Below, piece after piece: positions 49,101-52,100 of a stretch of DNA of 64,000 nt. The stretch spans positions 4,340,001-4,404,000 of the forward strand of contig NW_026889764.1 in assembly GCF_033153115.1 (NCBI RefSeq), read 5' to 3'. Numbering within the stretch: position 1 is the stretch's first letter; each line of letters starts with the position of its first letter. This DNA comes from Saccostrea echinata (lineage: Eukaryota). Below the pieces are notes generated by a model that did not search any database, was not told where the DNA came from, and was given only the letters and a program-made list of their open reading frames with translations. A program made the position numbers and the translations under genes.

Positions 49101-52100
49101 TCGAGGTATTTCCACGATAAGCATTTAATGTTTTTCTATATCAATATGCTCGTATAAAGCATATTCTAAGTAATATGTCGGACGCAAATGGTATAGAATT
49201 TTTGAAGAATTTACCGCAATAGAACATACGTACATTGGATTTAAAACAAAATGTGATTGCAGATGATATATATAAGCTTAAGAGACGCTACATGGGGTTT
49301 TATTCAGTATTTTTGTATATATTTTACAGGGAACATTTGCCCTAGGCCGACTAATTGCCATTCCGTGTGCCACAAGACTGACTGCTGCCTTTATGCTCAC
49401 CTGTAACTTAGTATGTATTGATTGATACTACTGTAGCTAACCTGTAACTTAGTATGTATTGATTGATACTACTGTAACTAATCTGTAACTTAGTATGTAT
49501 TGATTCATACTACTGTAGCTAACCTGTAACTTAGTTTGTATTGATTCATACTACTGTAACTAACCTGTAGCCCTTTTCACAAAAAATCTTAAGTTTTTGC
49601 ATAAGATTTTAACTTAAGAATCTCTTACGACAAATCTTAAGTGCGTTTCACAAACGCATTCGTAGCAGATTGAACTTGAGATTTTACTTACGACAGACTT
49701 CATCCCTAGCAACGACTTCAATATGCTTTACAATCCTTTAATAAGTGGGTGAAAATAAAATAAAACTTAGTTTTCAACAATTGTCAGCATAACAAATATT
49801 ATTGACAACAAATATCGAATGCAATCAGTTGTGAAGCAAGGAAGTTTAAAATCTGACGTCACAATCACAAGTCTGACGTAAAAGTAGGTCATACGAAAAT
49901 CTTAAGTGAAACTTACATCGTAAATATTTTGTAGTGTATTTCATTTAATTTTTCGACAATGATTGTGAAAAAAATATATAAAATATTGTTGTAAGTTGCT
50001 TTACAACGTTCAATTTAACGTGTATTTTGGTTTTTGCGATTTTATTTTTACAATAAAATCGGTTTTAAAATACTTAAGAGAGGGTTGGGGCTCTCGTAAA
50101 GTTACGACAGATTTTGCACTTACGACTTTCTTACGAAATTTTGTGAAAATGATTTTTATCATAAGTTTTCACTTAAGATAAAAATATGTCTTAAGATTTT
50201 TTGTGAAAAGGGCTACTGTAACTTAGTATGTATTGATTCATACTACTGTAGCTAACCTGTAACTTAGTCTGTATTGAGTCATACTACATGTAACTAACCT
50301 GCAACTTAGTATGTATTGATTCATACTACTGTAACTAACCTTTAATTAAATGTAGTATGTATTGATCCATACTACTGTAGCGAACCTGTAACTTATATGT
50401 GTTATGTATTGATTCATACTACTGTAGCTATCCTGTAACTTAGTATCATTTGAGCCATACTACTGTAGCTTACTAGTCCTGTAACTTAGCATGACTGTAT
50501 TGATTCATACTGCTTTAGCTTAGTCCTATGACTTAGTATGTATTGACTAAAGCTATATGTCCTACCAAATCTTATAATTATCTTTTGTTTTTCGTTCATC
50601 TTTGTTTTCTGTTTTGAAAATAAAGCGGTACATCATGTGCATTAATTTTATTGAATTTCCCATTTGCAGAGATATTACATTGGTGAGAGCATGTACATAA
50701 GGCTTACATACATGTACAAAGTCCCGGCATCTTGCAAATAGACCCAATCAATATATTTTGAAAAGCTGAGAGCAACCAATTAATGGACAAAACAGCTCTT
50801 GAAGAGTTGAAATTGATATATCGACATTTTAAAATAAATTTAACATCTTGTCTTATTAACATATTTACTTTAACCTCATTTTGGCAGCAATTAATGAGGG
50901 AAATAAAATAGATTGCAATGTCATAAGAAATCGATATGAATGAATTTGTGGCAAACTGTTTTCGCAGTTTTTACTGATAAACCAAACAAGTAGTATTTGG
51001 TCGATTTGTTTTTCTTAAGTTTGAATACTTAAGTATTTTTTTTTAAATCATAATGATAATTTTATAATTCTTTGCGTTTTAAGATAATACTTGTCTGCCA
51101 ACATCATTTTCAAATTTTTTCTACTGTTAATACTTTTTCTGTATATTCTACAACATACATGTACCTCATACATTCTGTTCGTCAATTAATTAGTTAATGT
51201 TTACACGATGTTCTAAATATATTATTAAGTGTTGAATTTTGTCTGCAGTCCTAAATCAACAAGAAAAATAATTTTCACTACTGGTCAACACCCGATAAAT
51301 TAATCTAGAAATTAATTCAAACAGAATCAATGTATGTGGGAGACAAAAGATATAGGGATGCCATCATAAAAACGAATGTGTTAAACCAATGATAAATGAG
51401 AATTACTTTTCAAGATCAAATTGAAGTTTAATGAGGTTCGCTCCTGAGCTTTTAAGCATATTTTAATCTTAACCTATATTTCAAAAAATCTGCATAATGT
51501 TTTTTATTCTAATAATATATTTGGATTCTACAATGCCAATTCAACTATATTCAGTTAAAACTCCATGATTAAAATCCACACCAAAAGCATTAAGTGAGGA
51601 ACTATATTTTGTGGTGGAAGGTTTTTTTTTAGAAGAAAATGATCATTTTTTCTCTTAAGTATTTAAAGTATGTTAAGTTTGGATTCCTATTTTAACGTGC
51701 AGTCTGCACACAGAGTTATTTTGTGCAGTGAACTGTTTTATACTGGTCCTAAATTATATATTAAATAAACTAGCATGAATTCTATCATCATATTTGATAA
51801 ATATAGCAAATATATTGTAAAAAATCAAGAAAAAATAGCCCTAATTTAAGCTTAAAATGAGCACTATTTTAGTAATATCTAAAAATTAACATCACAGACC
51901 CCAATTTTAATTTTCTTTTCTGAATATATAAGATACTTTTAGCCATTCTTCTTAAATTCAGTAAAATGTCATTACTTTCAAATGATTTTTATGCTTGTTA
52001 AATTTTTAATGCCAGAAAAATGAATTTTTTGAGTGCAAAGAGGTCAAATAATTGAACATGCAGAGTAATTTGAAAAAAAAATTTCATTGTCACAAATTTT

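What the first reader, a model, noticed from the sequence alone, without database searches (positions are those of the whole stretch)
49400..50546. Minisatellite that amplifies a live 5' splice site
Seen: the 41-bp unit spans the last 11 nt of exon 7 and the first 30 nt of intron 7. About 12 copies exist, and at least five downstream copies keep TTA|GTATGT (e.g. ~49451, ~49492, ~50225). Read-through past the first donor gives GTA TGT ATT GAT TGA, an immediate stop. Inference: an array of decoy donors whose use would give truncated or NMD-targeted mRNA, so copy number could tune transporter expression.
Basis: partly seen in the sequence, partly recalled or inferred. Interest (0 to 1): 0.7.

Follow-up and report, generated by a model that had tools for sequence, protein, structure and literature searches.

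The report
Splice-donor minisatellite in oyster transporter gene
A 41-base piece spanning the end of an exon in an oyster membrane-transporter gene is repeated about 12 times into the intron and split by a small transposon, but all assembled RNA found splices at the first copy, so it is likely a tolerated repeat of a kind already known from human genes.

Summary
A 41-bp unit covering the exon 7/intron 7 boundary of an MFSD4A-like gene occurs about 12 times; 6 of 11 downstream copies keep GTATGT, and read-through meets a stop at 49423-49425. The regulatory reading is not supported. In 7 of 8 runs laid (3 studies) a contig holds exon 7, and all 7 go from 49410 straight into exon 8 at 53317; none extends into the array. 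Donor positions decay like the rest of the unit (8 of 41 changes, 6.0 expected), and divergence rises with distance from the exon (rho 0.85). The array was found only at this locus. Best reading: a minisatellite born by tandem duplication of the junction, with silent pseudo-donors, as in human F7 intron 7. Limits: contigs of depth 5-23 drop rare isoforms, NMD was not blocked, and length polymorphism was not testable. This scan has noted the same arrangement on other DNA (25 findings, at least 14 genomes). New member of a known kind; low interest.

The parts
30361..55533 (+). MFSD4A-like major facilitator superfamily gene, 11 coding exons, 549 aa model (30361-30662, 46294-46492, 46646-46870, 47292-47415, 48168-48277, 48605-48697, 49330-49410, 53317-53464, 53707-53777, 54879-54996, 55355-55533)
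   Evidence: Homologs named MFSD4A-like in molluscs; tblastn of P0001; open model with GT-AG introns; junctions of exons 2-9 seen in contigs. Exons 1, 10, 11 rest on homology only.
49330..49410 (+). Exon 7 (81 nt, phase 0-0); its last 16 nt are the head of repeat copy 1
   Evidence: contig boundaries; 26 of 27 residues identical to P0001; exon end aligns without gaps in 18 mollusc homologs
49408..49416 (+). Live 5' splice site TTA|GTATGT (5 of 9 matches to the consensus; the lowest of the gene's 10 donors)
49395..49567 (+). Minisatellite, 5' part: copies 1-4 and the first 9 nt of copy 5; intact pseudo-donors at 49452 and 49493, altered one at 49534
49423..49425 (+). In-frame TGA met on read-through of the first donor
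49568..50215 (+). 648-bp non-autonomous inverted-repeat element (MITE-like) inserted into copy 5; 26-bp perfect terminal inverted repeats, flanked by a CTG duplication (49565-49567, 50216-50218)
   Evidence: Inverted arms; 40 full-length genomic matches at 93-100% among 40 scored of 421 candidates; flanks
50216..50550 (+). Minisatellite, 3' part: rest of copy 5 and copies 6-12, increasingly decayed; GTATGT intact at 50226, 50309, 50355, 50536; broken in copies 6, 9, 10, 11
53317..53464 (+). Exon 8, joined directly to 49410

Best explanation
This is a minisatellite, found only at this locus, whose first unit spans the exon 7/intron 7 boundary of an oyster MFSD4A-like gene; it likely arose by repeated tandem duplication of that boundary, and its extra donors are likely silent because the spliceosome uses the first one. 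Shown: the 12 copies, the split by a 648-bp inverted-repeat element, splicing at the first donor in every contig that holds exon 7, a 5'-to-3' gradient of decay. Inferred: growth by slippage or unequal exchange mostly at the exon-proximal end (copies 1 and 2 share a private base), insertion of the element after the array existed, choice of the most upstream donor as in human F7, and removal by NMD of any rare transcript that uses a later donor.
For: Exon end is ancestral: it aligns gap-free with 18 mollusc homologs, so the repeat copied the exon and did not donate it. Locus-specific: the DNA search of the own genome finds only the three matches at this locus and an exact 21-nt pattern only its two places here; exon 8 has one match. 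Splicing: joint 49410-53317 in 4 of 4 runs, 3 of 4 runs have a contig that leaves at 49410/49411 into the first letters of exon 8 (the fourth, X6, has no contig); depth of the bin 49228-49495 is fully explained by exon 7 in all four runs, and record positions leave no extra letters between exons in X2. No conservation of donors: 8 of 41 changes in copies 2-12 fall in +1..+6, 6.0 expected, P(<=8)=0.86, P(>=8)=0.24; 6 of 11 copies intact, other hexamers 3-10 of 11. Polarity: rho 0.85, p 0.0005. Intron 7 holds 60 GT sites with 5 or more of 9 consensus matches, so six more are not unusual load. Precedent: F7, LMNB2 and PDGF use only the authentic donor (PMC1557585).
Against: All RNA evidence is contigs of depth about 5-23, which drop rare variants; NMD was active; 7 weaker joints were not displayed; it is unknown whether the animals sequenced carry the same array. 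In two human precedents (6-16, CBS) two proximal pseudo-donors are used in addition. The live donor is the weakest of the gene by consensus match, and copy 2 matches copy 1 from -12 to +25, so some leak to 49452 is plausible. The scanning rule was shown in mammalian cells, not molluscs. Twelve copies give little power to detect selection.
Confidence: 0.85

Rival explanations
1. Leaky but unselected: the nearest pseudo-donors (49452, 49493) are used at a low rate, as in human 6-16 and CBS, and the products are destroyed by NMD, with a small cost to transporter mRNA and no regulatory role.
For: Copy 2 differs from copy 1 at one exon-side base only; live donor 5 of 9; predicted stop 363-404 nt before the last junction; precedents.
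Against: No contig extends past 49411 in the 7 runs that hold exon 7; F7 pseudo-sites of identical sequence were not used in wild-type minigenes.
Confidence: 0.1
2. One reading: a selected array of decoy donors whose copy number tunes expression through unproductive splicing and NMD.
For: Every downstream donor leads to the same premature stop; 6 of 11 copies keep the hexamer; tandem repeats linked to splicing variation exist in humans (PMC10078293, passages).
Against: No unproductive isoform seen; donors decay at least as fast as the rest of the unit; an element inserted in the middle of the array is tolerated; no evidence here that the array varies in length.
Confidence: 0.04
3. The repeat is a dispersed or transposon-borne minisatellite that landed at the exon end and supplied the donor.
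For: A transposon-like element lies inside the array.
Against: The unit is found nowhere else in the genome searches (the DNA search skips very common words); the other element copies have unrelated flanks; the exon end is conserved in molluscs; the element interrupts copy 5 with a 3-bp duplication.
Confidence: 0.01

Closest known systems
Human F7 intron 7 37-bp VNTR (Borensztajn et al. 2006, PMC1557585; seen: abstract, Introduction, first Results section, Discussion)
   Same: First monomer spans an exon/intron boundary, donor reiterated in the intron, similar unit size, only the most upstream donor seen in use.
   Different: Oyster gene; 41-bp unit with 16 exonic bases (F7: 4); about 12 copies, the distal ones decayed; split by a 648-bp element; polymorphism and latent function of the pseudo-donors untested here.
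Human 6-16, CBS intron 13, LAMIN B2 and PDGF intron 4 minisatellites (known only from the Introduction of PMC1557585; the original papers were not read)
   Same: Same architecture of reiterated donors.
   Different: 6-16 and CBS use two pseudo-donors in addition; none was seen here at contig sensitivity.
PHIS (PIF/Harbinger-related) NuwaI transposons (PMC4482050; seen: passages), for the inserted element
   Same: 3-bp CWG target duplication, short terminal inverted repeats, reported in one mollusc.
   Different: NuwaI repeats usually begin GGG; this element begins TAG (some copies TGG); no transposase partner was sought, so it is not filed there.
Splicing-associated tandem repeats, spl-TRs (PMC10078293; seen: search listing and passages)
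   Same: Tandem repeat next to a splice site that might alter splicing.
   Different: Those are defined by a statistical link between length and splicing; none was testable here.

Membership tests
Boundary-spanning donor minisatellite (F7 type) | First monomer spans an authentic exon/intron boundary | tested here: met
   Copy 1 = 49395-49435; junction at 49410 confirmed
Boundary-spanning donor minisatellite (F7 type) | Donor sequence reiterated in the following intron | tested here: met
   6 of 11 downstream copies keep GTATGT, 5 with the full TTA|GTATGT
Boundary-spanning donor minisatellite (F7 type) | Only the first, or the first few, donors are used | tested here: met
   7 of 7 contigs holding exon 7 use the first donor; major isoform only, rare use not measurable
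Boundary-spanning donor minisatellite (F7 type) | Variable copy number among individuals (VNTR) | not testable with these tools
   One assembly, one locus; the runs laid are spliced contigs with no intron cover
Boundary-spanning donor minisatellite (F7 type) | Pseudo-donors become active when the upstream donor is inactivated | not testable with these tools
   Needs a minigene
Regulated unproductive splicing (AS-NMD decoy) | Alternative event creates a stop well upstream of the last junction | tested here: met
   Predicted: 363-1447 nt
Regulated unproductive splicing (AS-NMD decoy) | Unproductive isoform detectable | tested here: inconclusive
   Not seen in 7 runs, but contigs of depth 5-23 without NMD block
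Regulated unproductive splicing (AS-NMD decoy) | Alternative splice signals kept by selection | tested here: not met
   8 of 41 changes in the donor hexamer against 6.0 expected; small sample; cross-species conservation not testable
MITE (non-autonomous class II element), inserted element | Short, terminal inverted repeats, target duplication, many uniform copies | tested here: met
   648 bp; perfect arms; 40 full-length matches; 3-bp flanks identical in 18 of 24 parsed loci, 1 of 25 not parsed
PHIS NuwaI group, inserted element | CWG target duplication | tested here: met
PHIS NuwaI group, inserted element | Terminal repeats usually begin GGG | tested here: not met
   Begin TAG or TGG
PHIS NuwaI group, inserted element | Autonomous partner with DDE transposase and Myb/SANT gene | not tested
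   No search made

The most novel reading that the evidence does not exclude
The array is a polymorphic splicing rheostat in a mollusc: the proximal pseudo-donors compete with an unusually weak live donor, send part of the transporter mRNA to NMD, and array length or presence of the inserted element sets how much. It would be a natural invertebrate test of first-donor choice and a repeat-based expression QTL in oysters.
Probability: 0.06. Interest if true: 0.55.

Novelty: new member of a known kind. Interest (0 to 1): 0.14.

Why it matters
Modest. It adds an oyster example of a known arrangement and agrees with first-donor choice outside mammals. With a transposon splitting the array and an almost identical donor 41 nt behind a weak live one, it is a convenient natural minigene for testing how 5' splice sites are chosen in molluscs. 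It would matter more only if array length proved to change transporter expression.

Tried and rejected
Hairpin masking: each unit holds an inverted repeat over the donor, and copies 1-2 carry a base change in its 3' arm, which suggested that decoys are masked and the live donor open. Folding did not bear this out: single-unit energies -5.6 (copies 1, 2) against -6.7 to -7.3 (copies 3, 5, 7) and -9.0 (copy 8); the chance that the 9-nt site is unpaired was 0.035, 0.014 and 0.000 for the live donor in three window sizes, overlapping the intact decoys (0.000-0.029), and copy 2 folds like copy 1. Rejected. Pseudo-microexon pattern: copies preceded by AG tend to have broken donors (2 of 7 intact, against 4 of 4 without AG; Fisher p 0.061 for copies 2-12, 0.008 only after dropping copies 2 and 12), but 12 of 234 comparable site-by-window pairs reach p 0.061, so it is treated as post hoc. 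Polymorphism: no DNA run covering the intron was found; no RNA holder is on record as RNA in the listing, the runs are taken as RNA-derived because their contigs skip GT-AG introns. Orthologous introns of other oysters could not be fetched (the genome has no relatives held). Literature: searches returned nothing, the latter for minisatellite + splice donor + oyster + intron; the library lacks most subscription papers, so this does not show that the locus is unreported. No earlier notes near this place. Scripts stopped on my own exon-boundary errors; the corrected model is (the exon 7/8 alignment is unaffected, its whole-protein identities are not used).

Full report
Observation. Tandem Repeats Finder reports two 41-bp arrays, 49395-49569 and 50216-50546, and 12 copies can be set in register. 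The nine bases TTA|GTATGT stand at the exon 7 end and at five places downstream, and a sixth copy keeps GTATGT behind GTA. Shuffled intron 7 gives 0.066 such matches on average against 5 observed. Read-through of the first donor gives four codons and a stop at 49423-49425. What was missed is that the array is cut in two.

The insertion. Between the two parts lies a 648-bp element (49568-50215) with perfect terminal inverted repeats. A search of the own genome scored 40 of 421 candidates and returned 40 full-length matches at 93-100% identity, the best other copy at 98%. Leaving it out on paper restores copy 5 to a 41-bp unit with a CTG duplicated on both sides. In 24 of 25 fetched loci that could be parsed (one is the window's own), the 3-bp flanks were identical in 18 and differed in 6, five of these being CAG against CTG. 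It is a MITE-like element that inserted into an existing array (order inferred from the interrupted copy). CWG duplications define NuwaI elements of the PHIS superfamily (PMC4482050, passages), but their ends usually begin GGG and these begin TAG or TGG, so it is not filed there.

The gene. A search with exon 2 returned 21 proteins, the named ones from molluscs and mostly called MFSD4A-like, the closest from Saccostrea cucullata; that protein has a weak MFS_1 match below Pfam's cut-off. The exon 7 end aligns without gaps to 18 homologs of over 400 aa, so it is ancestral coding sequence: the repeat copied the junction and did not create it. The repeat was found only at this locus (the DNA search can skip very common words), and exon 8 had a single match.

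Which donor is used. Ten runs were listed; 8 were laid. All are assembled contigs and none is on record as RNA, but their contigs skip GT-AG introns. In one search, 4 of 4 runs show the joint 49410 to 53317 at the same depth as neighbouring joints of the same contig. Seven weaker joints were not displayed, but the depth of the bin 49228-49495 equals what exon 7 alone gives in all four runs (5.84/5.83, 7.16/7.15, 3.18/3.2, 1.96/1.95), and record positions in X2 leave no extra letters between exons; any later donor used as an exon extension would have to cover that bin. In one search, 3 of 4 runs have one contig on exon 7, each running on into the first letters of exon 8; X6 has none. So 7 of 7 informative runs, from 4 samples and 3 studies, use the first donor. 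Limits: depth about 5-23, rare variants dropped, NMD active, and the array allele of those animals unknown.

What later donors would do. All six intact downstream donors lie behind the same stop, so each would give a 382-aa product lacking the last three predicted hydrophobic segments, with the stop 363-1447 nt before the last junction. By the general exon-junction rule (recalled, not tested in oysters) such mRNAs would be NMD targets.

Is the array kept for its donors? No sign of it. Of 41 differences from the majority unit in copies 2-12, 8 fall in +1..+6, 6.0 expected; counting shared variants once, 8 of 34 against 5.0; neither departs from chance, and the lean is toward more decay, not less. 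Differences per copy rise from 1-2 near the exon to 6-11 at the far end (rho 0.85, p 0.0005), and copies 1 and 2 share a private base, which suggests that recent duplications happened at the exon-proximal edge (inference; copies are not independent, so the p value is indicative). Intron 7 already holds 60 GT sites that match the consensus as well as or better than the live donor. Two further ideas, hairpin masking of decoys and selection against AG-bounded 15-nt pseudo-exons, were tested and dropped.

Comparison with what is known. PMC1557585 (abstract, Introduction, first Results section and Discussion read) describes the human F7 intron 7 minisatellite, whose first 37-bp unit spans the boundary; only the most upstream donor is used, and later ones take over in order when it is mutated. 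Its Introduction lists 6-16 and CBS (two pseudo-donors also used) and LAMIN B2 and PDGF (authentic donor only); those papers were not read. PMC10078293 (passages) catalogues human repeats linked to splicing. PMC2630376 was seen only as a search listing. A search for an oyster case found nothing in the held library. No supplements were read. Earlier notes of this scan record the same arrangement in 25 findings from at least 14 genomes; they are unchecked and came after the F7 paper had been found.

Verdict. Real, correctly seen, and a new member of a known kind. Most likely a tolerated minisatellite with silent pseudo-donors (0.85); unselected low-level leak 0.10; regulatory decoy array 0.04. 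Interest 0.14.

Noticed in passing
window 49568-50215 and L005-L028: In 5 of 24 parsed copies of the inserted element the two 3-bp flanks differ at the middle base (CAG against CTG), and the flanks form a loosely palindromic target; two end variants (TAG.. and TGG..) occur in mixed pairs. Unexplained.
   Followed up: partly
window 6674-8368: 166-bp tandem array, 10.4 copies; the unit length recalls the 166-bp oyster satellite (recalled, not tested).
   Followed up: no
window 1332-1780: Serpin-like coding fragment (Pfam Serpin, E 2e-06) whose frame seems to continue in a different frame; possibly a broken serpin gene.
   Followed up: partly
window 52840-53150: Dispersed repeat in intron 7, 170 nt upstream of exon 8, on which contigs of summed depth 400-8500 lie; likely an abundant interspersed element also present in transcripts elsewhere.
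   Followed up: no
window 51400-52400: Another multi-copy repeat in intron 7, covered by many 90-95% alike contigs.
   Followed up: no
window 49398: The exon has CTC where near copies have CTA, a synonymous difference; the copies' exon-derived part still reads LTCNL in 4 of 5 copies translated.
   Followed up: partly
window 32970-33236: 30-31-bp tandem array (about 9 copies) in intron 1 of the same gene.
   Followed up: no
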